From Parcubacteria group bacterium GW2011_GWC1_36_108 (lineage in GTDB: Bacteria > Patescibacteriota > Minisyncoccia > Moranbacterales > GWC2-37-73), in assembly GCA_000991245.1 (NCBI GenBank), contig LBRD01000006.1, positions 103,340 through 167,339 on the forward strand: a DNA stretch of 64,000 nucleotides. Reading direction: 5' to 3'. The notes under the pieces are model-generated. The model ran no database searches and was not told where the DNA came from. It was given only the letters and a program-made list of their open reading frames with translations. Both the position numbers and the translations under genes were made by a program. Below are positions 397-10,857 of this stretch, piece after piece; positions within the stretch are counted from its first letter, which is position 1, and every line of letters begins with the position of its first letter.

Positions 397-858
397 TCAT
401 GATGTTTCCATTTTCTCCATTTCCTTCCGAAAACTGTCTGCGTTTTTGAATCCCTTGTACACACTTGCAAATCGCAAATATGCAACATCGTCCAATTCCT
501 TAAGTTTTTCAAGAATCATTCGACCAATTTCCTTGCTTGATATTTCATTGCTTTCGCGAGCCTGAATTTCATATTCAATGTCGCCAATCGCTTTTCCTAT
601 TTTTTCTTCGCTCACTGGTCTTTTTTCCAAAGCCTTGTGCAAACCAATTTCTATTTTCCTTCTGTCATATTCCTGCTTGCTACCATCTCGCTTAGTAACA
701 GTAAGACGCATAATTTCCATTTCCTCATAAGTACTGAAACGTGCTTGGCATTTTTCGCATTCTCTTCGCCTGCGAATTGCCTTTGAATCATTCGTGTCGC
801 GAGAATCGACAACCTTCGTGTCGCCATTCCCGCAAAATGGACAAATCATAAGTTTCAA
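397..858 (-). CDS. nrdR: Transcriptional repressor NrdR (zinc ribbon + ATP-cone)
   Basis: MKLMICPFCGNGDTKVVDSRD...CEKCQARFSTYE zinc-ribbon followed by an ATP-cone; 153 aa is typical NrdR size. Confidence 0.9.
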   Translation of the reverse strand: MKLMICPFCGNGDTKVVDSRDTNDSKAIRRRRECEKCQARFSTYEEMEIMRLTVTKRDGSKQEYDRRKIEIGLHKALEKRPVSEEKIGKAIGDIEYEIQARESNEISSKEIGRMILEKLKELDDVAYLRFASVYKGFKNADSFRKEMEKMETS

Positions 859-1320: not shown

Positions 1321-1947
1321 TTATGATAATGTTTTTTCAAATTCCAAAACTTTTTCAACAATAACCTTTTTCACAACATCCCAATTTTCTAAAGCAAACA
1401 TCATGGGCATCGGATCCCCTTCAGCATCTTCAAAAAAAGTCAGGCTTTTAAGAATGTGCAACATATTATATTGAATATTATTGAATTTTTTTTCGAAAAA
1501 ATTTATCAATTCTCGCAATTCATATTTTTTCAAGAGGATGTATAAATCAATAAAATCTTTCTTGCTTCCACGCGAAGAAATCGCATCAATTTTCATTGCA
1601 GCGATGTCGCGTTCATCTGCCATTTTTACACCCTCAAATTCCACCAGGGGAAACAGTAACTCATATTCATAACGCAAGAAACTAACTTTCACTCCATCAA
1701 TTGTACAGTGCAGTGTTCCATCCTCCTCACCAACAACAACCACACTTCCAATTTCAGGTAAAAGTTTTTTCAACTCAACAGGTGAAAAATTTTCTTTTGA
1801 AAAAAAATCTAAATCAATAGATTTTCGATGCCCAAGTTCAATAGCAAGCGCTGTTCCACCAGCAAGATAAAATGATTTCAGAATGTCAATTTTTTTTATC
1901 TTTTCAAAAACGCGCATTGTTTGCTCATCGATTGTTTCGTGGTACAT
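1321..1947 (-). CDS. Nucleotidyltransferase, AbiEii/AbiGii toxin-like family
   Basis: SFYLAGGTALAIELGHRKSIDLDFF N-terminal motif typical of the AbiEii/DUF1814 NTase fold; 208 aa. Confidence 0.6.
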   Translation of the reverse strand: MYHETIDEQTMRVFEKIKKIDILKSFYLAGGTALAIELGHRKSIDLDFFSKENFSPVELKKLLPEIGSVVVVGEEDGTLHCTIDGVKVSFLRYEYELLFPLVEFEGVKMADERDIAAMKIDAISSRGSKKDFIDLYILLKKYELRELINFFEKKFNNIQYNMLHILKSLTFFEDAEGDPMPMMFALENWDVVKKVIVEKVLEFEKTLS

Positions 1948-2192
1948 AAAATTTGATCTGAGATATTAAAATACACCTTCCAAAAATTTCGTGACTTTGC
2001 ATCAAACTGATCAATTGATTTCAAGAAAATTTCACGCAAAATTTCCGCTCCATACAGTTGAAATGCCCAGTTTAAATCATCAATGTCTCCCATACTCAAA
2101 ATACGTTTAACAATAAACGTTTTATGAGTCTGCGGATCAATAGTGCCAAGATCAACATCCCAAAAAAGTGATTGTTTTTCTAGTGTCTTCAT
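1896..2192 (-). CDS. Hypothetical protein; possible cognate partner (antitoxin-like) of the downstream NTase; overlaps it by ~50 nt
   Basis: 98-aa ORF overlapping the NTase start, a typical toxin-antitoxin arrangement; no confident domain recognised. Confidence 0.3.
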   Translation of the reverse strand: MKTLEKQSLFWDVDLGTIDPQTHKTFIVKRILSMGDIDDLNWAFQLYGAEILREIFLKSIDQFDAKSRNFWKVYFNISDQILCTTKQSMSKQCAFLKR

Positions 2193-2302: not shown

Positions 2303-2929
2303 TTAAAGATTTCCCTGTTGAGAACCGTCCTCGGTTGGTGAATTTCCCTTTTTAGCGAGAACATAAAACCAATCCCTGTTATGAGCATGGAAAATACTGA
2401 CATAAAAACTAGTAAGCCCAATGTCAGTTATTTTTTTTAAAATATCTTTTTTTGTAAATTTATTGAAAATAAAGTTTTTCCGTTCTATATCATTTTTTTC
2501 TTTTTTCATAACAATAAAGCCAAAAACACCACCACAAGCCAAAATACGCTCAACCTCTAAAAGAGCTTTTTCAATGTCATCAGAAGTCAAATGCGTAAAT
2601 AAAGAAGATGAAGCCCATATTCCATTAAAATACTCATTTTGAAAATCAAGCGCTGTCATTTCCATTAAACTAAATTTTCCATTAAAATTTTTATTAGCAT
2701 AATCAATCATTTTTTCAGAAAAATCTATACCAATTCCATCAAAATTATTTTCAATAAAATAATTAACATCGCGCCCAGTTCCACTTCCGATATCCAAAAT
2801 TTTTCCTTTCTTAGGAATATATTCTAGAAATTTATCGAGCTTATCTTGCATAAGCACATCACCATTTTTTAAATATATTTCTAAATTTTCATTGTACCAT
2901 TTTTTTATTTTTGAATAAACTAATTTCAT
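2303..2929 (-). CDS. Class I SAM-dependent methyltransferase
   Basis: ILDIGSGTGRD motif I and acidic motif II (IGIDFS) of the Rossmann-fold MTases; 208 aa. Immediately downstream of the rSAM/precursor genes. Confidence 0.8.
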   Translation of the reverse strand: MKLVYSKIKKWYNENLEIYLKNGDVLMQDKLDKFLEYIPKKGKILDIGSGTGRDVNYFIENNFDGIGIDFSEKMIDYANKNFNGKFSLMEMTALDFQNEYFNGIWASSSLFTHLTSDDIEKALLEVERILACGGVFGFIVMKKEKNDIERKNFIFNKFTKKDILKKITDIGLTSFYVSIFHAHNRDWFYVLAKKGNSPTEDGSQQGNL

Positions 2930-2930
2930 A

Positions 2931-2964
2931 AAAAATAGAGGAGGAGCAAAGAGTTGCTCCTCCT
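2931..2964 (-). terminator. Stem-loop plus U-tract between the precursor peptide gene and the methyltransferase start (intrinsic terminator or attenuator)
   Basis: Minus strand reads AGGAGGAGCAA-ctct-TTGCTCCTCCT-ctattttttATG: a perfect 11-bp stem and a T-run ending at the MTase ATG (2929). Confidence 0.5.
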
Positions 2965-3011: not shown

Positions 3012-3089
3012 CTATGTTCCACAGTTTTGACAACAAAAGGAAACGTTCTGATCCACTTGATTTTCATCAATATATATTGAAACAAACAT
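3012..3089 (-). CDS. Putative RiPP precursor peptide, 25 aa, Cys-rich C-terminus (MFVSIYIDENQVDQNVSFCCQNCGT)
   Basis: Not in the ORF track (<60 aa). Found by hand translation of the minus strand: aaaGGAGGTGAgagtcATG, a strong SD with 5-nt spacer. The ORF lies 77 nt downstream of the rSAM-SPASM stop and has three Cys in its last 8 residues. Stop is TAG at 3012-3014. Confidence 0.5.
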   Translation of the reverse strand: MFVSIYIDENQVDQNVSFCCQNCGT

Positions 3090-3165: not shown

Positions 3166-4458
3166 TCATGATACAAGAAACATCTTTTTGTCAAAAAGGA
3201 CTTTAAAAAATAATTCCCTGTCTTTCACTGACACGCCCTCCACATCTACCTCTTTCCAGCTGAAATACTTATTACCACTCAGTAAATTAAGAACAGTATT
3301 GTACCCAGCTTTATTAAGAAATACCAATTCATCATTATATTTCACAACACCACCAAATTCTTCCGCCCTAATTTGCACGCCTTTAACAAATTTCAGATTA
3401 TTAGGCAATTGAAAATCGAGTTGCGAGGTATTTTCTGCGAAGTTAACCTTTTCCGGTCCTGTCATCAATGGATCTTTCCCATGTATATCATTGTAGAATA
3501 TTTTTGCATCCATTCGACATCCTCCCGAACATCGCAAGAGATGTGGACAAATTCTACATTTTTCATAAAGAAAAGTTCCATCACGCCATTCCTGCATTGC
3601 AAACCAGCACTCTTGCAAAGACTTTTCAAACAAATTTCCATAGGTCATATCCGCATGAGCACATGGACGAATTGAACCATCAGGAGAAATAGAACAGTTA
3701 AATACACCGGCCGTACAATTCCTGCGAAGAAACTGTTGATATTTTTTCATATCACCAATAAAGCAAAGTGGATAGGTTTCCAATATTTCAACCCAAAGTC
3801 CCAAATCACTTTGAAGGTGCAGGAGTGCATCCATTGATTCTTTAATCTGCTGTGGTGTTGCTCTGTAATTTCTATACTCAGTATCTGGTGACGGAGCCAC
3901 TTTTGTTGCAGAAAAACGCAAAATCCCCAAGCTATGAGCCAACTTGCCTGTTTCATAAACTTGATGTGCATTTTCTTTACGCACCACCATATTTGCACTT
4001 GTTAAAACACCAGTTTCAGTCAGCATTAGAACATTAGAAAGAAGACGCTTATGAAAACCCTCACGTTGAATGATAACGTCATGAATTTCTGGTTGATGAG
4101 AAAGCAACGAAGTTAGAATGCCAACACTATTTTGATAAAAAAAGTCCGACATTTCCCTGGTAAGTAACTGCAAATTAGTATTACAATATACAACCAAGCC
4201 TAGTTCTTTTGCTTTTCGTATACCAGCCTTTAAAGTTTCTTTAAACATTAAAGGTTCACCACCAGTAAAGCATACCGACATTACTTTCCAACGCGCCAAT
4301 TCTTCCACCAATTTTTCCGCTTGACTTGGCAAAAGATGCTTAGAAACGGCTTTCTTAATATGTTGACATGCGCGATAACAATGAGTACAGACCTGGTTAC
4401 AATTGTCAGTAATTTCAATTTGCACTGATAATGGTGCACTTAAGGTTCTATATATCAT
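3166..4458 (-). CDS. Radical SAM / SPASM-domain peptide-maturase-like enzyme with ~95-aa C-terminal RRE(PqqD)-like extension
   Basis: CNQVCTHC (CxxxCxxC) radical-SAM motif and GGEPL; C-terminal SPASM cysteine array (CTAGVFNC...RPC...CW...CRICPHLLRCSGGC). Start reassigned to MIYRTLS (4458) because AAAGGAGGTGGA lies 5 nt upstream; the ORF-track start at 4500 has no SD. Confidence 0.85.
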   Translation of the reverse strand: MIYRTLSAPLSVQIEITDNCNQVCTHCYRACQHIKKAVSKHLLPSQAEKLVEELARWKVMSVCFTGGEPLMFKETLKAGIRKAKELGLVVYCNTNLQLLTREMSDFFYQNSVGILTSLLSHQPEIHDVIIQREGFHKRLLSNVLMLTETGVLTSANMVVRKENAHQVYETGKLAHSLGILRFSATKVAPSPDTEYRNYRATPQQIKESMDALLHLQSDLGLWVEILETYPLCFIGDMKKYQQFLRRNCTAGVFNCSISPDGSIRPCAHADMTYGNLFEKSLQECWFAMQEWRDGTFLYEKCRICPHLLRCSGGCRMDAKIFYNDIHGKDPLMTGPEKVNFAENTSQLDFQLPNNLKFVKGVQIRAEEFGGVVKYNDELVFLNKAGYNTVLNLLSGNKYFSWKEVDVEGVSVKDRELFFKVLFDKKMFLVS

Positions 4459-4514
4459 ATTGTCCACCTCCTTTGTGGGTTTCGTAAAATTAAAGAACAT
4501 TCATACTACGATGA

Positions 4515-4585: not shown

Positions 4586-4623
4586 AAAAAAAGCCGCTCC
4601 TCATATTAATAATGAGAAGCGGC
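4586..4623 (-). terminator. Rho-independent terminator after the lipoprotein gene; paralogous to 1234-1272
   Basis: gccgctcctcat / atgagaagcggc stem (1 mismatch), loop attaataa, followed by a U-tract on the minus strand; then the gcagggcggg block. Confidence 0.55.
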
Positions 4624-4666: not shown

Positions 4667-6100
4667 TCATTTTACTGTAATGTTTTTGGTGTAGGATTCA
4701 ACGAATCCATCCTTCCACCGTTTTTCTTCGAGTTCGACGGTGGTCATTGTTGTGCCACCGATTTTGGTGCCGGAGGAAGCTTTGATGATTTTACCGTTCC
4801 AGCTGGTGGAGAAATCGTTGTTGATAACAACTTCTCCATTTGCATCTGAGACAGCACTTTGGAGCAATGGCTGCGGGAATGGCTGGATGTAATAATTCGC
4901 CGTGCCATTTTTACTGTTTGGATCAATAGTATTGGTCAGCGTTCCGAAAACTTTTACCTCGCCGACGACTGGGTTTCCAAGTGAATTGACGAGTCTCACT
5001 TTAACAACTTTTGGCAAGTTGTTAGCGATTTGCCACATATCAACCTGATGGTTAGCATTATTGGTTGCCAACCAAGCATTAAAGGGCGAGAATATTGTCC
5101 CGGTCCATAAACCTGGTTCTGTCATTGGATCTTTTGGATATAAAGCCCTAAGGCTATATGATTCCAAGATTGGGGCAACATTAGTTCGATCCTGAAAAGC
5201 AATACCATACCATTCGGGTACGCCACCCGCAAGGGTATGCATAAATTCTTGGCAAGTACTAAATATAACACTATCAAAATATGTTGGACTAAGTTTTTCT
5301 ATTTCACTTCTGCCAAGCAACACTGTCATTTCATCCTCCGCCTTATAAATGGTATAGTATTTCTTTCCATTCATAACATGACTAGTGGTAAAAGTATAGG
5401 AGTATTGCGAAGTGATATACGCGGGAATTTCGCTCCTATCCTTATATATGAAATAAACGAGTGTTGTCCCTCCGTAGGTCGGGCTGCCCGGAAAATCATT
5501 GTCATAATAATTCGACGGGTCTTCTTGAATCCCATCAAATTGGGCATTGGTATAACTCTTCACCTGCCCAACTTGATATCTTTTTGTTGTGTTCTTTGCA
5601 AAAACCGCACTAACCTCTGAGATTGCGGCTCCTGCATTTTTTACCACATCGGGATGCGCGTCATAAAAAGATTTGTTGACGAGCACAGGAATAACTTCCG
5701 GATTAAGCGCTGGCACTGGTGCCAGTTTCAAGGTTGTTACGGTCGGCGCAGAGATATTGACAACAGCTTCAAACTTTGCACTTGATCCTGCCGCATTTGT
5801 TGCGACAAGACTTGGACTGTGCGACCCAACAGCGTAAGTATGCACTGGGTTTTGTTCAGAGCTGGTTGCACCATCTTTGAAATCCCAGTACCAATTTGTT
5901 GGCGATTCTGTTGCTGTACCGTTAAACTTTGCTGTCAAGCCTGTCACCTCAACGGTAAACGAGGCTACAGGCACTTTACTTGTTACCGGTGGGGTTACTG
6001 GAGAAGAAGAATCTCCTCCACCTCCGCCACCACAAGCAGCAAAGAAAACCAGACAAACAAACAGCATTCCTAACTTCAGCCAATAAAATCTTGAGTTCAT
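4667..6100 (-). CDS. Secreted lipoprotein with PKD domain
   Basis: Signal peptide plus lipobox (LVFFAAC, then a Gly run); WYWDFKDGATSSEQNPVHTY is a classic PKD signature. Confidence 0.75.
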   Translation of the reverse strand: MNSRFYWLKLGMLFVCLVFFAACGGGGGGDSSSPVTPPVTSKVPVASFTVEVTGLTAKFNGTATESPTNWYWDFKDGATSSEQNPVHTYAVGSHSPSLVATNAAGSSAKFEAVVNISAPTVTTLKLAPVPALNPEVIPVLVNKSFYDAHPDVVKNAGAAISEVSAVFAKNTTKRYQVGQVKSYTNAQFDGIQEDPSNYYDNDFPGSPTYGGTTLVYFIYKDRSEIPAYITSQYSYTFTTSHVMNGKKYYTIYKAEDEMTVLLGRSEIEKLSPTYFDSVIFSTCQEFMHTLAGGVPEWYGIAFQDRTNVAPILESYSLRALYPKDPMTEPGLWTGTIFSPFNAWLATNNANHQVDMWQIANNLPKVVKVRLVNSLGNPVVGEVKVFGTLTNTIDPNSKNGTANYYIQPFPQPLLQSAVSDANGEVVINNDFSTSWNGKIIKASSGTKIGGTTMTTVELEEKRWKDGFVESYTKNITVK

Positions 6101-6467: not shown

Positions 6468-9299
6468 TTACGGTGCTACTTCTTGCCAAGGAATTTGACT
6501 TCCGCCAGTAGTAGTGGGCGCTGCTGCTGAACATGATGCGTTATCAGTGCAAGACTTTGTACAAGAATTTGTTGCCACACTAGTAGTATAAATATTGTCG
6601 CAAGTTGTGTTATCAGTACTACATGTCTTGTTAGTGCACCTTGTTACAACTGTTGCTGATCTTGTTCTTGATCCACCTGGACCAACACAGGTTACGGTAT
6701 AAGTTGCAGATGATGAGGATTGAGATACAGTTACATTTCCTCCTGCAATATTAGCAAAACCACCACCCATATTAGCACTTTTAGTGCAGCTTGTTGCATT
6801 AGAAACTGGAGACCAGGTCAAAGTAATATTTCTTGGCAATGCACTAATTTCAAGATCAATGATAGTTGGGTTTGCAGTTAAAGTAAATGATGGAAGAGAG
6901 GCTGGGCAGTCAGAAATACACGTTGCAGATGTTTCAGTTCCATTACAGCTTCCGTCGCCGCAAAAAGGAGCAACCGAACAATCAGAAGGACAAGTTGCAG
7001 ATGTTTCACCATTATTACAAATTCCGTCACCACAATATGGAGCTGGCGGAGGACAATCCTGAGAACATGTTACGTATGTTTCTGCTCCATTGCAAATTCC
7101 ATCATTGCAAACTGCTGTAACAGGAATAGCAGCTGTTTTAGTGGCGCTGCATTGAGGAGAATCAGCACCACCATTTTTACTCTTACAATACCAAGTCCAA
7201 GGACCAGATCCTGCAAAAGAAATAACATCCCCATAACTGCAAAGATTTGCACTTGTAGCTGTTAGTGTTGCAAATGTCCCACCAGAAGCTGATCCGCATA
7301 CACCGGCTGTTCCCGTTGTAGGGATGACGGGTGCAACTACTGTGTATGAAAAATATGAAGTTCCGTAAACCGCAGGACAATCAACTCTTTCATAACTCAA
7401 GGTATTAGCAATCAAAGGAGTACAACTATTAATTTCATAATCAATAGTATTTCCATATTCATCTATATAAGACGTTGGACATTTGTAACACTCCAAATTA
7501 TTGCCGTCAGTAAAAAAACCGGCTGTAAAAAAAGCTTGGTACGTTCCAGCAGTTGCAGGCACAGACATCCCGCTTGGATTATTATAATCAGGATTAGCGT
7601 CATATCCGAACTTTCTTCCAGCTGCAGTCACTAAACTCCCATCTGTTTTATTACTTCCCCACTTATATTCAACAAATCTGGTCGTATCAACATACCAACT
7701 AAAATATTGTGACACTGAGACTCTCATTTCCTCACCAGGAGCGTAGGTTGCTTTATTATAATTAATAGTAAATGTACCAGTTCTTAGTTTACTCTCTTGA
7801 TGAAATGATACCCAGTAGTAGAAAAGCTCGCCAGGATAAAGAGGATTAGCTGCAGGGGCATATTGAAGATTGTTAGCACGCATAGGTGCAGTCACAACCA
7901 AGGTGTCCGCGCTAGCCTCACCGGATCCAGCCAAGAAGATTCCTCCAGAGAAAAGCATCAACAATAAAAACATTCCCAGACCGCCGCGCAATTTGTCTTT
8001 GAAAACAAACACCAAAACCGCAATAAGCGATGCGAGTAGGAAAATAATCACAAACAGAATGTTTTTGGAATATTTAGCAGCTGCAACTTTTGTCTCAACG
8101 GGTTTTGATTTGATATTAAAAACATCATTGGACAATTTGTTTCCATCTTTATCAGTGATAGAAATCCTAAGAACTGGATCCAAACATTTTATTGATATTG
8201 GGATTGAAAAATTCAATTCTTTTTCTTCAGAACTTCTCGCCAGAGTTTGATTGATTTTTCCACATTCTTGTCCTGCGCCAGATTGAATCATAATATCAAT
8301 CTTTCCATCATCGAAAGTTGTTGACTCTTTGCGTAAGCTTGAAAATGAATCTGCACTTCCAGTCCAGAATAAATTAGCATTGGCGATATCGCCTTTTTCA
8401 TAGGCGTCTTTGTCTAAACGAATATTTTGAACAGTTGCGCTAAGACCGCGAACAACATAGTGAAATTCGACTTTGTTTGAAATTTGATTTCCATTTTTGT
8501 CTGCAAAAACCAAAATGCCTGAATATGCCTGAGGGTCGCTAGCTATCGATATTGGAAATTGAAATTCCTTTTTTTCACCTGGCTTAACAACAACCTCTTT
8601 TAATGAATCTTTTCTAATCTCTTTTCCAAAAGAAGAACGATAAAAAGTTGTCAGCGTTGGAGCAAGAGCGGTTTCTTGAGCAAAACTTCCAGCAACTGTG
8701 CAGTTTCCGAAAAGAGTTTCATTTTTTTCAACATCCACTCTCCCAAGCAATTCATATTTTTTCTGCGGGTCATTGTCCTCTTTCACAGTTAAGAAACAAT
8801 TAGCAACTTCCAGTGAATCTCCTTGCCCATCCAAAGTAACTTCGTTAAGTGTTGATATTGCCAAAGGAAGAGCATTACCATTTTTAGCATTCAAAACTGG
8901 AACGTATTTCCCTTTTAGATATTTTGGAGCTTCATATGTGATGTTGATTTTTTTTGTTTCATTTTCTCCTAAACTTACCACTTCGGATGAAAACACCTTC
9001 TCATCCGCAACAATATAATTGTTTTCATCAGTTCTTGTCAGGTTTATACCATAAATAACCTGGGGTTGAACACCAGTTCGATTTGAAAGATCAAATGAGA
9101 TCTTAAATACATTTCCTGCTTGCTCTGTTATTTTTGCGTCATATATGTTCACAGTAGCAACTGTGACCATCTGCAATCCCGCTTGCTCAGGTGCAGCAAC
9201 AGGCTCAACGGCAGAAACATTTTTGCTTAGCGAGAAAAATCCCACCAGCAAAAAAACAAACACCGCGACTCTTTTTAAGAAATACTTTTTTGTTTTCAT
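6468..9299 (-). CDS. Giant cell-surface protein (943 aa): signal peptide, internal TM hairpin, Cys-rich C-terminal ectodomain with CGDGxCN tandem repeats and a CGSASG...PWTWYC module
   Basis: N-terminal signal peptide MKTKKYFLKRVAVFVFLLVGFFSLSKNVSA; hydrophobic segments ILFVIIFLLASLIAVLVFVF and MFLLLMLFSGGIFLAGSG mid-protein; three ~25-aa repeats CGDGICNNGETSATCPSDC near the C-terminus. Confidence 0.8.
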   Translation of the reverse strand: MKTKKYFLKRVAVFVFLLVGFFSLSKNVSAVEPVAAPEQAGLQMVTVATVNIYDAKITEQAGNVFKISFDLSNRTGVQPQVIYGINLTRTDENNYIVADEKVFSSEVVSLGENETKKINITYEAPKYLKGKYVPVLNAKNGNALPLAISTLNEVTLDGQGDSLEVANCFLTVKEDNDPQKKYELLGRVDVEKNETLFGNCTVAGSFAQETALAPTLTTFYRSSFGKEIRKDSLKEVVVKPGEKKEFQFPISIASDPQAYSGILVFADKNGNQISNKVEFHYVVRGLSATVQNIRLDKDAYEKGDIANANLFWTGSADSFSSLRKESTTFDDGKIDIMIQSGAGQECGKINQTLARSSEEKELNFSIPISIKCLDPVLRISITDKDGNKLSNDVFNIKSKPVETKVAAAKYSKNILFVIIFLLASLIAVLVFVFKDKLRGGLGMFLLLMLFSGGIFLAGSGEASADTLVVTAPMRANNLQYAPAANPLYPGELFYYWVSFHQESKLRTGTFTINYNKATYAPGEEMRVSVSQYFSWYVDTTRFVEYKWGSNKTDGSLVTAAGRKFGYDANPDYNNPSGMSVPATAGTYQAFFTAGFFTDGNNLECYKCPTSYIDEYGNTIDYEINSCTPLIANTLSYERVDCPAVYGTSYFSYTVVAPVIPTTGTAGVCGSASGGTFATLTATSANLCSYGDVISFAGSGPWTWYCKSKNGGADSPQCSATKTAAIPVTAVCNDGICNGAETYVTCSQDCPPPAPYCGDGICNNGETSATCPSDCSVAPFCGDGSCNGTETSATCISDCPASLPSFTLTANPTIIDLEISALPRNITLTWSPVSNATSCTKSANMGGGFANIAGGNVTVSQSSSSATYTVTCVGPGGSRTRSATVVTRCTNKTCSTDNTTCDNIYTTSVATNSCTKSCTDNASCSAAAPTTTGGSQIPWQEVAP
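6887..7097. repeat. ~75-bp tandem coding repeats (x3) encoding CGDGxCNxxETxxTCxxDC modules
   Basis: Repeated peptide strings in the protein and in overlapping plus-strand ORFs 6784..7062 and 6887..7120 show DNA-level tandem duplication. Confidence 0.6.
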
Positions 9300-9449: not shown

Positions 9450-10247
9450 TTATTTTTCAAAACTTTCCAAATATTCTGGTAAATTCAAAATCCATTTCGC
9501 CTGCTCGGGATAAAACAAGAATCTCTCCACATCCTTTACTGCTTGAGGCAAATCACTTTTAATAGCTTGCTGTTTTAAAAATTCAATCAATTCCTTCCTA
9601 TCATTAATTGCAATCCCCTTTTCCTTAAAAATTGCATAATTTGGCTCGATATTTTTTTGACTCAAAAACCATACCAAATCATAAAAATCGCGTCCTTTTT
9701 GATAAGGACGAAAGATAATCGCTAAAATCTTTTGTGCAAAAAGCGTTTCCAGGGTATTAACCATCATTGGAAATCGCTCATTAAAACTATCAGTAAATTT
9801 TGTCTGAGTTTCAATATTTTTATATGGATTATAATCAATTTCAAATTTTACTAAAATCTTTTCATCCTTTTGACCACTCAAGCCAAATTCTCTCAAAACA
9901 TTTTTAAATCTAAAGAACACAATGTGAATATTTTGTGTAGTTTTTGTCCGAATATCAACCTGAAAACCTTGCAACTCCAACTTTTTGCTGATTTCCTCAG
10001 CCAACTTTTCCAAATCAAATTCCTCTTTTTTAATCAAATCGAAATCCAAATCTTCCGAAAAACGATTAATGTTATATGCAAAACGCAAACATGTACCACC
10101 AAGAAAAGAAAGGCTATCATTATACGCGCTAAGCGAAAGAGCTTTCAAGATTTGTGTTTGTAAATATTCCAATAAAATATTTCGCTGTTGCCAGGGAATA
10201 TTTTTTTCCTCAGCATATTTTTTGAAAAATTCTTTATTTGGCAACAT
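9450..10247 (-). CDS. AbiEii/AbiGii-family nucleotidyltransferase toxin (type IV TA)
   Basis: LSFLGGTCLRFAYNINRFSEDLDFD motif typical of the AbiEii NTase; 265 aa; overlaps the upstream AbiEi-like gene. Confidence 0.8.
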   Translation of the reverse strand: MLPNKEFFKKYAEEKNIPWQQRNILLEYLQTQILKALSLSAYNDSLSFLGGTCLRFAYNINRFSEDLDFDLIKKEEFDLEKLAEEISKKLELQGFQVDIRTKTTQNIHIVFFRFKNVLREFGLSGQKDEKILVKFEIDYNPYKNIETQTKFTDSFNERFPMMVNTLETLFAQKILAIIFRPYQKGRDFYDLVWFLSQKNIEPNYAIFKEKGIAINDRKELIEFLKQQAIKSDLPQAVKDVERFLFYPEQAKWILNLPEYLESFEK

Positions 10248-10857
10248 AATATTTAATAAAGTTGTTAGTTAAAAATAATACTTTTTTATTCTCAAATGCT
10301 TTTGCAAATTTCAAAAGTTTTTTGCCATCAAATTTAAAATCTTCATTAAAACGATAACCCTGAAATTGCTGCTGACCGCCATTTAGGATATTACGATTAA
10401 GGTATAAAAAATCAACTACGGCTTTTTCAGGTAATGCTAAATTGAATGAAACGCCATTAGTCTTTTTTGTTTCAAATCCTCCAAATGCCTCCTTTTTAAT
10501 TTTTTGATAACTAAAATTGCCCACCGGTGTTGCAAACTTTTTTGTTTTTCTTGTTGTCACGGAGGTCACAGTAAAGACAGCCTCTGGAATAATTCCGTAA
10601 AAATTCAAAGCCATTTCCATACTAATATAAGAAGGTGCATAAATTTTTGTCGCAAATTCCATCATATCAAGCTTATTTTTCATTTCAGCCACAATATAAA
10701 GACCTCTTCTAAGCATAATTAAATGGCCCTTATTGATCCAGTTTTTAAGATTAACAAGGGTAGTGCTTGTGAAATTACTGCCCAAAATAAGCCTTAATTC
10801 TTTCGTTTCAAAACACGGCAGCTCTTCAATTTTTTTCCTGAATTCAAAATAATTCAT
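10234..10857 (-). CDS. AbiEi-family antitoxin/transcriptional regulator (type IV TA)
   Basis: APSYISMEMALNFYGIIPE matches the conserved AbiEi core; gene order and 14-nt overlap with the NTase are typical of abiEi-abiEii. Confidence 0.75.
   Translation of the reverse strand: MNYFEFRKKIEELPCFETKELRLILGSNFTSTTLVNLKNWINKGHLIMLRRGLYIVAEMKNKLDMMEFATKIYAPSYISMEMALNFYGIIPEAVFTVTSVTTRKTKKFATPVGNFSYQKIKKEAFGGFETKKTNGVSFNLALPEKAVVDFLYLNRNILNGGQQQFQGYRFNEDFKFDGKKLLKFAKAFENKKVLFLTNNFIKYYVAK

What the first reader, a model, noticed from the sequence alone, without database searches (positions are those of the whole stretch)
3166..3460. C-terminal (not N-terminal) RRE-like extension on the rSAM-SPASM enzyme
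After the last SPASM cysteine the protein continues for ~95 aa (…VKGVQIRAEEFGGVVKYNDELVFLNKAGYNTVLNLLSGNKYFSWKEV…VSVKDRELFFKVLFDKKMF). Its alternating hydrophobic pattern resembles the PqqD-like RiPP recognition element (wHTH plus beta-strands). RREs are normally N-terminal or stand-alone in rSAM RiPP maturases; a C-terminal one would be an unusual architecture.
Basis: inference. Interest (0 to 1): 0.55.

Follow-up and report, generated by a model that had tools for sequence, protein, structure and literature searches.

The report
Peptide-docking domain at enzyme's tail end
A peptide-modifying radical SAM enzyme from a Candidate Phyla Radiation (CPR) bacterium carries its substrate-docking domain at the tail end instead of the usual front end, and sits next to a tiny cysteine-rich peptide gene that is almost certainly its substrate.

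Summary
The ORF at 3166..4458 (-) encodes a 430-aa radical SAM/SPASM enzyme. Its last ~77 residues, after a ~25-residue linker, form a conserved, confidently folded domain.

Evidence that the domain is RRE-like:
- The AlphaFold2 model (pLDDT 91) has three to four beta-strands followed by helices.
- Its best PDB matches are nearly all RiPP recognition elements: MccB clamp, TfuB1, TbiB1, PbtF, ThcOx, TigE, PqqD.
- At sequence level, 31 of 86 family members give sub-threshold hits to the PqqD-family chaperone MftB. None hits Pfam PqqD.

There is no room for an N-terminal RRE, because CxxxCxxC sits at residues 20-27.

In all 20 distinct related loci examined (plus the window), a small ORF lies beside the enzyme gene. 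Most of these ORFs (15 of 20 by a strict pattern, most of the rest as variants) share a leader motif ([FY]-V-S-[LIM]-hydrophobic), and their Cys-rich cores are hypervariable. The window's ORF is MFVSIYIDENQVDQNVSFCCQNCGT at 3012..3089 (-). Two terminator-like hairpins bracket enzyme plus peptide.

The domain marks about 295 clusters (50% identity). Every long hit listed has it at the C-terminus, and every named source genome is CPR/Patescibacteria.

C-terminal RREs are already documented in proteusin rSAM epimerases and in MpaB, so this is a permuted variant of a known kind attached to an uncharacterised RiPP family. Peptide binding and the chemistry are inferred, not shown.

The parts
3166..4458 (-). 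Gene for the 430-aa radical SAM / SPASM / C-terminal RRE-like enzyme. The longest ORF runs to 4500; the start at 4458 has the strong RBS.
   Evidence: The full-length AF2 model has pLDDT 93.5 and pTM 0.92. Closest solved folds are SkfB, SuiB, CteB, anSME, PqqE and TigE.
4378..4401 (-). CxxxCxxC radical SAM cluster motif (C20, C24, C27). Its position at the very N-terminus leaves no room for an N-terminal RRE.
   Evidence: These columns are invariant in A1. In full-length family representatives the motif lies at residues 10-52. In remote relatives with N-terminal domains the Radical_SAM match starts at residue ~89-135.
3517..3765 (-). Auxiliary-cluster (SPASM) region: invariant C232, C248-x12-G261-x4-C266, and C301-x2-C304-x5-C310-x3-C314.
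3400..3516 (-). Linker between the SPASM domain and the C-terminal domain (residues 315-353). It contains the conserved G-x-DPLM, where canonical relatives have DPxC.
   Evidence: the 10-residue block 341-350 has pLDDT 72.
3169..3399 (-). C-terminal RRE-like (PqqD/MftB-like winged-helix) domain, residues 354-430. Elements: strands 354-357, 362-366, 369-374, 377-381; helix 383-395; a short turn/helix 399-403; helix 411-423; strand 427-429. It carries the R-x-E-x-F-G-G motif.
   Evidence: fold; MftB hits; hhalign to the N-terminal region of P0074; distribution.
3012..3089 (-). Candidate precursor peptide MFVSIYIDENQVDQNVSFCCQNCGT (25 aa), preceded by the RBS AAGGAGGTGAGAGTC. The leader motif is FVSIY and the core is N-V-S-F-C-C-Q-N-C.
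   Evidence: Equivalent ORFs are found in all related loci. No known peptide family matches.
2939..2964 (-). Terminator-like hairpin with a T-run just after the peptide ORF.
4593..4623 (-). Terminator-like hairpin upstream of the enzyme gene, after the PKD-domain protein gene. Together with the hairpin at 2939..2964 it brackets a two-gene unit.

Best explanation
The last ~77 residues of this radical SAM/SPASM enzyme are a RiPP recognition element of the PqqD/MftB kind that has been placed after, rather than before, the catalytic and SPASM domains.

Proposed mechanism (inferred):
1. The domain binds the conserved leader segment ([FY]-V-S-[LIM]-hydrophobic; FVSIY in the window) of the small peptide encoded immediately downstream. 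By analogy with solved RRE complexes, the leader would add as an extra beta-strand between the last sheet strand and the last long helix.
2. This delivers the Cys-rich C-terminal core (NVSFCCQNCGT) to the radical SAM active site and the auxiliary clusters.
3. The most likely chemistry is thioether (sacti-/ranthipeptide-type) cross-linking of the cysteines.

Shown here: the domain exists, is conserved and has an RRE-like predicted fold. The domain order is fixed across the family. A peptide gene with a conserved leader motif co-occurs with the enzyme gene.

Inferred: leader binding by this domain, the binding groove, and the chemistry.
For: Fold. AF2 of the tail alone gives pLDDT 90.8. In the full-length model the same elements appear with pTM 0.92. 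Foldseek against the PDB puts RRE domains first: MccB at E 2e-3 and TMq 0.57, then TfuB1, PbtF RRE, ThcOx, TigE (TMq 0.65), PqqD, TbiB1 and McbB.

Sequence. MftB (TIGR03967) is the only family hit repeatedly. It is hit by 10 of 38 members and by 21 of 48 further cluster representatives, with a best E of 1.6e-4. hhalign of the domain profile against the N-terminal region of the remote rSAM-SPASM homologue P0074 gives 81% probability and E 1.3e-5 over 72 columns, and P0074 shares the R-E-x-F-G motif.

Architecture. CxxxCxxC lies at residues 10-52 in every full-length family member, and the domain is always at the C-terminal end. Of the more distant relatives, two (P0080, P0071) show a PqqD match at the N-terminus.

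Substrate. In all 20 distinct related loci examined, and in the window, a small Cys-rich ORF lies beside the gene. It is directly downstream in most loci, one gene further downstream in one (L023), and upstream in one (L026). Most ORFs share a leader motif (15 of 20 by a strict pattern) while their cores are hypervariable. Terminator-like hairpins bracket enzyme plus peptide in the window.

Geometry. In TigE, the C-terminal tail after the SPASM domain lies in the beta3/alpha3 groove of the N-terminal RRE; in SkfB it contacts a different part of the RRE (PMC10878394). The end of the SPASM domain is therefore spatially next to where an RRE normally sits, which makes a C-terminal placement plausible.
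Against: - No Pfam PqqD hit in any of 86 members.
- All MftB hits are below the curated cut-off of 33 bits.
- Foldseek E-values are modest (2e-3 to 0.1). Non-RRE winged helices (NO66/MINA53) score comparable or higher TM.
- Profile searches against PDB sequences return only generic winged-helix proteins plus a weak SuiB N-terminal match.
- The middle helix of the three is very short in the model, and there is an extra first strand and a terminal strand.
- In SuiB the RRE is present but the leader binds elsewhere (PMC8326336). Presence of the fold therefore does not prove leader binding.
- No complex model or coordinates could be inspected here.
Confidence: 0.72

Rival explanations
1. The tail has an RRE-like fold but is vestigial or structural. 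It would cap or stabilise the SPASM domain or mediate oligomerisation. The leader would be recognised by the catalytic barrel / SPASM bridging region, as in SuiB, or by an RRE-independent route.
For: In SuiB the leader sits in the active-site region and barely touches the RRE (PMC8326336). The high pTM of 0.92 suggests the tail packs tightly on the core. The domain is short (~77 aa) with a reduced middle helix.
Against: The domain keeps a conserved surface motif (R-x-E, with F-G-G in most members) and conserved helix residues down to 26% identity. Across the same range the peptides keep one short leader motif while their cores diverge completely. That pairing is what a dedicated leader receptor predicts.
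Confidence: 0.15
2. The tail is a generic winged-helix nucleic-acid-binding or regulatory domain that makes the enzyme bifunctional, for example autoregulating its own operon. It would not be a peptide receptor.
For: Individual members give weak hits to MarR, TrmB, Rrf2, HTH_11, HTH_69 and similar families. Profile hits to PDB sequences are winged-helix regulators, SelB, eS25 and ADAR Z-alpha. The median domain pI is 9.1.
Against: Those hits cover only the helical half, and no single family recurs in more than 4 of 48 members, whereas MftB recurs in 21 of 48. The strands precede the helices, as they do in the RRE structures that top the fold search. Per RRE-Finder's authors, RREs are known to resemble DNA-binding wHTH domains and to cross-hit them (PMC7470986). 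A basic domain also suits the acidic leaders (DENQVDQN).
Confidence: 0.05
3. The enzyme is not a RiPP maturase. It would be a NirJ/AhbD-like cofactor-biosynthesis rSAM, as the deposited name 'MoaA/NirJ family Fe-S oxidoreductase' implies, and the small ORFs would be fortuitous.
For: The best NCBIfam scores are to NirJ2 and AhbD, and the source annotation says MoaA/NirJ family.
Against: All those scores are far below the cut-offs (106 bits against 500). The nearest solved folds are peptide maturases. The small ORFs share a leader motif and Cys-rich ends across loci whose enzymes share only ~30% identity, and the window's ORF has a strong RBS. No heme-d1 or heme-b pathway genes are adjacent.
Confidence: 0.03

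Closest known systems
N-terminal-RRE radical SAM/SPASM (or twitch) peptide maturases: CteB, SuiB, TigE, SkfB, AlbA-type sacti-/ranthi-synthases
   Same: The catalytic core and auxiliary-cluster domain are the same; these are the best full-length fold matches and the best PDB sequence matches. They also have an RRE-type domain and an adjacent Cys-containing precursor gene.
   Different: The domain order is reversed: rSAM-SPASM-RRE instead of RRE-rSAM-SPASM. The final SPASM cysteine (DPxC) is replaced by DPLM, and an extra invariant Cys (YPLC, C232) is present. No curated family model reaches its cut-off.
MftB / PqqD stand-alone RRE chaperones (mycofactocin and PQQ pathways)
   Same: MftB is the only recurrent sequence-family match of the tail. 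PqqD (5sxy) is among the fold hits. These proteins partner rSAM-SPASM enzymes (MftC, PqqE) that also score against the core.
   Different: Here the domain is fused, and fused at the C-terminus. All scores are below the family cut-offs and Pfam PqqD is never hit. The precursors lack the Val-Tyr (mycofactocin) or Glu/Tyr (PQQ) signatures and are Cys-rich instead.
Proteusin radical SAM epimerases (PoyD/OspD type) and MpaB (daptide pathway), both with C-terminal RREs
   Same: They set the precedent for an RRE fused C-terminally to a RiPP enzyme (PMC8326336, PMC7470986, PMC10028931).
   Different: Per PMC8326336, proteusin epimerases have only the radical SAM cluster and no SPASM auxiliary clusters. 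[quoted passage not shown] No sequence relationship to either was tested here.
SCIFF / ranthipeptide two-gene cassettes (rSAM-SPASM plus a short Cys-rich peptide)
   Same: A minimal cassette of one rSAM-SPASM gene and one short Cys-rich peptide, with no conserved transporter or protease nearby.
   Different: The leader motif and core patterns differ (SFCCQxxC, CYCDCGCDC, CDxCDxC...). The RRE is C-terminal. All named source genomes are CPR/Patescibacteria.

Membership tests
RiPP recognition element (PqqD-like RRE) superfamily | A domain of ~80-100 aa with a winged-helix fold: a three-stranded antiparallel sheet plus three helices | tested here: met
   The AF2 model (pLDDT 90.8) has strands 21-24, 29-33, 36-41 and 44-48, helix 50-62, a short helical turn 66-70, helix 78-90 and strand 94-96. 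The middle helix is reduced. Foldseek top hits are RREs.
RiPP recognition element (PqqD-like RRE) superfamily | Significant match to a PqqD/RRE sequence model (Pfam PF05402, RRE-Finder HMMs or NCBIfam RRE families) | tested here: inconclusive
   PF05402 hits 0 of 86 members at E<=1. MftB TIGR03967 hits 31 of 86 members, with a best E of 1.6e-4, all below the 33-bit cut-off. hhalign to the N-terminal region of P0074 gives 81% probability. RRE-Finder and HHpred were not available.
RiPP recognition element (PqqD-like RRE) superfamily | Binds the leader region of a cognate precursor peptide | not testable with these tools
   Only indirect support: an adjacent peptide gene in 20 of 20 loci, most with a conserved leader motif.
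RiPP recognition element (PqqD-like RRE) superfamily | Encoded in or beside a RiPP-modifying enzyme, with a precursor gene nearby | tested here: met
   The domain is fused to an rSAM-SPASM enzyme. The precursor candidate is at 3012..3089 (-).
Radical SAM / SPASM peptide maturases | CxxxCxxC radical SAM motif and Radical_SAM domain | tested here: met
   PF04055 at E 1.7e-15; C20, C24 and C27 are invariant.
Radical SAM / SPASM peptide maturases | Seven-Cys SPASM motif: CX9-15GX4C ... CX2CX5CX3C ... C | tested here: inconclusive
   PF13186 scores 27.1 bits against a cut-off of 21.5. C248-x12-G-x4-C266 and C301-x2-C-x5-C-x3-C314 are invariant. The final downstream Cys is absent (DPLM where relatives have DPxC), and a different invariant Cys (C232) lies upstream. 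Which residues ligate the clusters was not determined.
Sactipeptide / ranthipeptide synthases | Forms Cys-S to C-alpha (sacti) or C-beta/gamma (ranthi) thioethers on a Cys-containing core | not testable with these tools
   The cores are Cys-rich and the nearest folds include SkfB and CteB. The chemistry is unknown.
Mycofactocin system (MftB/MftC) | MftC and MftB equivalog scores above cut-off; MftA precursor ending in Val-Tyr | tested here: not met
   MftC model scores 75 bits against a cut-off of 265; MftB scores 15.8 bits against 33. The precursor ends ...CCQNCGT.
NirJ/AhbD heme-pathway rSAM (the deposited annotation) | Equivalog score above cut-off and heme d1 / heme b pathway neighbours | tested here: not met
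   NirJ2 scores 106 bits against 500; AhbD scores 85 bits against 500. The neighbours are a methyltransferase, a PKD-domain protein and AbiEii toxin genes.

The most novel reading that the evidence does not exclude
This may be the founding example of an undescribed RiPP family, so far seen only in CPR/Patescibacteria. A single fused enzyme (rSAM-SPASM-RRE in permuted order, with an altered auxiliary-cluster ligand set) would recognise a universal short leader ([FY]VS[LIM]-hydrophobic). It would install a cross-link chemistry not yet catalogued on hypervariable Cys-rich cores (SFCCQxxC, CYCDCGCDC, CDxCDxC). That would give ultra-small-genome episymbionts a minimal two-gene system for making modified peptides, whether toxins, signals or metal/redox cofactors.
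Probability: 0.2. Interest if true: 0.75.

Novelty: new variant of a known kind. Interest (0 to 1): 0.5.

Why it matters
- **Missed by standard screens.** The tail gives no Pfam PqqD hit in any of 86 members tested, and the published compendium of RRE-associated rSAM enzymes was built with RRE-Finder and PF05402 neighbourhood screens (PMC10288494). This family (about 295 clusters at 50% identity) has therefore probably been missed by RRE-guided genome mining. The deposited record names it a MoaA/NirJ oxidoreductase.
- **Handles for mining.** Recognising the C-terminal RRE together with the conserved leader motif gives two simple search handles for RiPP loci in Candidate Phyla Radiation bacteria, where few RiPPs have been described.
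- **Mechanism.** A natural RRE permutation on a SPASM scaffold tests how much RRE position matters for delivering the core to the active site. That is relevant to engineering leader-guided rSAM enzymes.

Tried and rejected
- Pfam on the tail alone found nothing.
- phmmer of the tail against PDB sequences gave only a chance YaxA hit.
- Profile hmmsearch of the tail against PDB sequences returned only generic winged-helix proteins at E>0.01. This is not informative for or against an RRE.
- The search for homologous proteins with the tail alignment returned a single fragment, because the word index is too coarse for a short divergent domain.
- The search for related loci with the 55-sequence alignment failed for lack of a conserved stretch. 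It worked with the 20 closest sequences but gave few loci.
- hhalign of the tail profile against the N-terminal regions of P0071 and P0080 was not significant. Only P0074 matched.
- Literature searches for a C-terminal RRE or PqqD on a SPASM enzyme, and for CPR rSAM RiPPs, found no description of this family. The library lacks most subscription papers, so absence is weak evidence. Burkhart 2015 could not be read.
- Stand-alone versions of the domain were considered. Most short hits start at the Met of GGCR-M-[ED]AK or of DPLM and are therefore gene fragments. A few 84-91 aa proteins may be genuinely discrete, but this was not pursued.
- A graspetide context (CPR loci with SPASM, UbiE-like methyltransferase and zincin peptidase; PMC8939145) was considered. 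No ATP-grasp domain was detected in the neighbouring genes that were scanned.

Full report
**What is at the coordinates**

The minus-strand ORF 3166..4500 most likely starts at the ATG at 4458, which is preceded by AAGGAGGTGGACAAT. The resulting 430-aa protein is identical to a deposited protein from Candidatus Moranbacteria bacterium GW2011_GWC2_37_73, named there 'MoaA/NirJ family Fe-S oxidoreductase'.

Pfam finds Radical_SAM and SPASM domains and nothing on the last ~100 residues. NCBIfam gives only far-sub-threshold hits for the core: NirJ2, GeoRSP, AhbD, WgkB, MftC, PqqE, PapB, StsB and others. On the tail alone it gives one weak hit to MftB, the PqqD-family chaperone of mycofactocin biosynthesis (E 0.016). 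By sequence, the nearest solved structures are SkfB, PqqE and CteB.

**Is the tail a real domain?**

A database search returned 85 homologues, about 68 of them full-length. In a 55-sequence alignment reaching down to 26% identity, the tail is always present. Its conserved motif is R-x-E, extended to R-x-E-x-F-G-G in most members, followed by FLN, a conserved Gly/Leu in the first helix and F...L in the last helix.

AlphaFold2 on the tail alignment gives pLDDT 90.8. The elements are strand-strand-strand-strand, helix, a short helical turn, helix, strand. The full-length model (pLDDT 93.5, pTM 0.92) reproduces these at residues 354-430, after a linker whose 341-350 block drops to pLDDT 72.

A profile of the tail searched against 1.84 billion cluster representatives finds 295 proteins at E<=1e-3. 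All long hits listed are 420-470 aa proteins. They have CxxxCxxC within the first ~50 residues and the domain at the extreme C-terminus. Most short hits begin at an internal Met of the SPASM region, so they are fragments.

**Is it an RRE?**

- *Fold.* Foldseek of the tail model against the PDB is headed by the N-terminal peptide clamp of MccB (E 2e-3, TMq 0.57). Next come the lasso B1 proteins TfuB1 and TbiB1, the PbtF RRE, ThcOx, TigE (TMq 0.65), PqqD and McbB. All of these are RiPP leader-binding domains. Winged-helix domains of NO66/MINA53 are the main non-RRE hits.
- *Sequence.* Pfam PqqD is never hit. MftB is hit by 10 of 38 members of the first alignment and by 21 of 48 further, divergent cluster representatives, with a best E of 1.6e-4. 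No other family recurs in more than four members. Those others are assorted winged-helix regulators matching only the helical half, a cross-reaction that RRE-Finder's authors describe as typical (PMC7470986).
- *Profile comparison.* hhalign of the tail profile against the N-terminal ~110 residues of the remote rSAM-SPASM homologue P0074 gives 81% probability and E 1.3e-5 over 72 columns, with the same R-E-x-F-G motif. Two other N-terminal regions did not match.
- *Domain order in relatives.* Among the remote homologues with extra N-terminal sequence, the Radical_SAM match starts at residue ~89-135. Two of them (P0080, P0071) show a PqqD match at the N-terminus, the classical order.

Together these results support an RRE-type fold and probable distant homology to the MftB/PqqD group. 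No curated sequence model reaches its threshold.

**Context**

Immediately downstream, after a strong RBS, lies a 25-codon ORF at 3012..3089 (-): MFVSIYIDENQVDQNVSFCCQNCGT. Terminator-like hairpins at 4623..4593 and 2964..2939 on the minus strand bracket enzyme plus peptide.

I examined 20 distinct related loci from genomes and metagenomes. The enzymes there share 30-78% identity with the window's. Every locus has a small ORF beside the enzyme gene.

- Close relatives encode ...FVS/TI[FY]...N-x-[SA]-F-C-C-Q-x(1,2)-C...
- A second clade encodes ...[FY]G[YF]xSLM...CYC[DNH]C[GA]C[DAN]C[YH]V...
- Others encode GFVSL...DCCDDGC, KFVSLL...Cys7, GFVSLF...CDSCDYCDNCDLCDACDC, or RFVSLL...SCYREPPPCY.

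The short hydrophobic leader motif [FY]-V-S-[LIM]-hydrophobic is matched by a strict pattern in 15 of 20 peptides, with variants in most of the rest, while the cores are unrelated apart from their cysteines. None of the peptides matches a known NCBIfam peptide family.

A SAM-dependent methyltransferase follows in the window (2303..2929) and in some relatives but not all. Some other loci carry a Peptidase_MA_2 gene. No transporter is conserved. A conserved receptor-like domain paired with a conserved leader motif and diversifying cores is the expected signature of RRE-guided maturation.

**Mechanism proposed**

The C-terminal domain docks the leader, and the Cys-rich core is presented to the rSAM active site and auxiliary clusters. 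Thioether cross-linking is the most likely reaction, given the cysteines and the nearest folds: SkfB, SuiB, CteB, anSME, PqqE and TigE.

A C-terminal position is geometrically reasonable. In the TigE crystal structure, the tail that follows the SPASM domain lies in the groove of the N-terminal RRE; in SkfB it contacts another part of the RRE (PMC10878394). The chain end is therefore already next to the RRE site.

Binding, the groove and the chemistry are all inferences. SuiB shows that an RRE can be present without holding the leader (PMC8326336).

**Comparison with what is known**

[quoted passage not shown] C-terminal fusions are nevertheless explicitly noted for proteusin epimerases (PMC8326336, PMC7470986) and for MpaB of the daptide pathway (PMC10028931).

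I found no description of an rSAM-SPASM enzyme with a C-terminal RRE, nor of this CPR family, in the searchable library. That library omits most subscription journals.

The finding is best classed as a new variant of a known kind: a permuted rSAM-SPASM-RRE maturase belonging to an uncharacterised, apparently CPR-restricted RiPP family. All source genomes that carry a taxon name are Patescibacteria: Moranbacteria, Saccharibacteria, Buchananbacteria and Vampirococcus.

**Verdict**

- Observation: confirmed.
- RRE interpretation: supported by fold, recurrent weak sequence signal and genomic context.
- 'Unusual architecture': true for SPASM enzymes but not unprecedented among rSAM RiPP enzymes.
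- Interest: moderate (0.5). The main value is a mining handle for an overlooked RiPP family, together with a natural test of RRE placement.

Noticed in passing
window 3012..3089 (-): A 25-codon ORF with a strong RBS lies directly after the rSAM gene: MFVSIYIDENQVDQNVSFCCQNCGT. It is a candidate RiPP precursor, conserved in related loci as a leader motif plus a Cys-rich core. It falls below usual gene-calling lengths, and gene calls on related contigs list a small downstream ORF in some loci (L003, L004, L025) but not others (L001, L002).
   Followed up: yes
window 3460..3480 (-) (G-K-DPLMT) and 3763..3765 (C232): The family has lost the last cysteine of the canonical SPASM motif: DPLM here, where remote relatives have DPxC. 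It carries instead an extra invariant Cys in a YPLC motif upstream. The ligand set of the auxiliary clusters may therefore differ from CteB/anSME-type enzymes.
   Followed up: partly
window 2303..2929 (-): A class I SAM-dependent methyltransferase (Methyltransf_25/11; a UbiE-like hit at E 7e-4, just below the Pfam cut-off) lies directly after the peptide's terminator-like hairpin. The same gene follows the peptide in L001 and L004 but not in L003. It is a possible tailoring enzyme. The hairpin's T-run abuts its start codon, and no clear RBS is seen.
   Followed up: partly
window 1321..2192 (-) and 9450..10857 (-): Two AbiEii-type nucleotidyltransferase toxin genes (type IV toxin-antitoxin), each with an overlapping upstream partner ORF (DUF6922 at 1896..2192; an unassigned 207-aa ORF at 10234..10857), flank the region.
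   Followed up: no
window 4667..6100 (-) and 6468..9299 (-): Two large predicted secreted or surface proteins lie upstream. One is a 477-aa lipoprotein-like protein with a PKD domain. The other is a 943-aa protein with no Pfam match, an N-terminal signal-like segment, an internal hydrophobic stretch and a Cys-rich repetitive C-terminal part. Large PKD/CBM proteins also lie upstream of the rSAM gene in L004 and L025.
   Followed up: no
L023 3904..4683 and L027 1677..2375: A Peptidase_MA_2 (zincin) gene neighbours the rSAM gene in two more distant loci. In L023 it sits between the enzyme and the peptide gene, making it a candidate leader peptidase. This resembles the SPASM + UbiE-like methyltransferase + zincin sets reported beside CPR graspetide loci (PMC8939145).
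   Followed up: no
L026 2193..2420 (Candidatus Vampirococcus lugosii): In this locus the candidate precursor (…GFVSLF…CDSCDYCDNCDLCDACDCDNTPCDS) lies upstream of the enzyme rather than downstream. The enzyme gene did not translate to the query under table 11, which fits the alternative genetic code I recall for Absconditabacteria (not checked here).
   Followed up: no
window 397..858 (-): An NrdR transcriptional repressor gene (zinc ribbon plus ATP-cone). It is an ordinary housekeeping gene, which helps show that the window is chromosomal.
   Followed up: no
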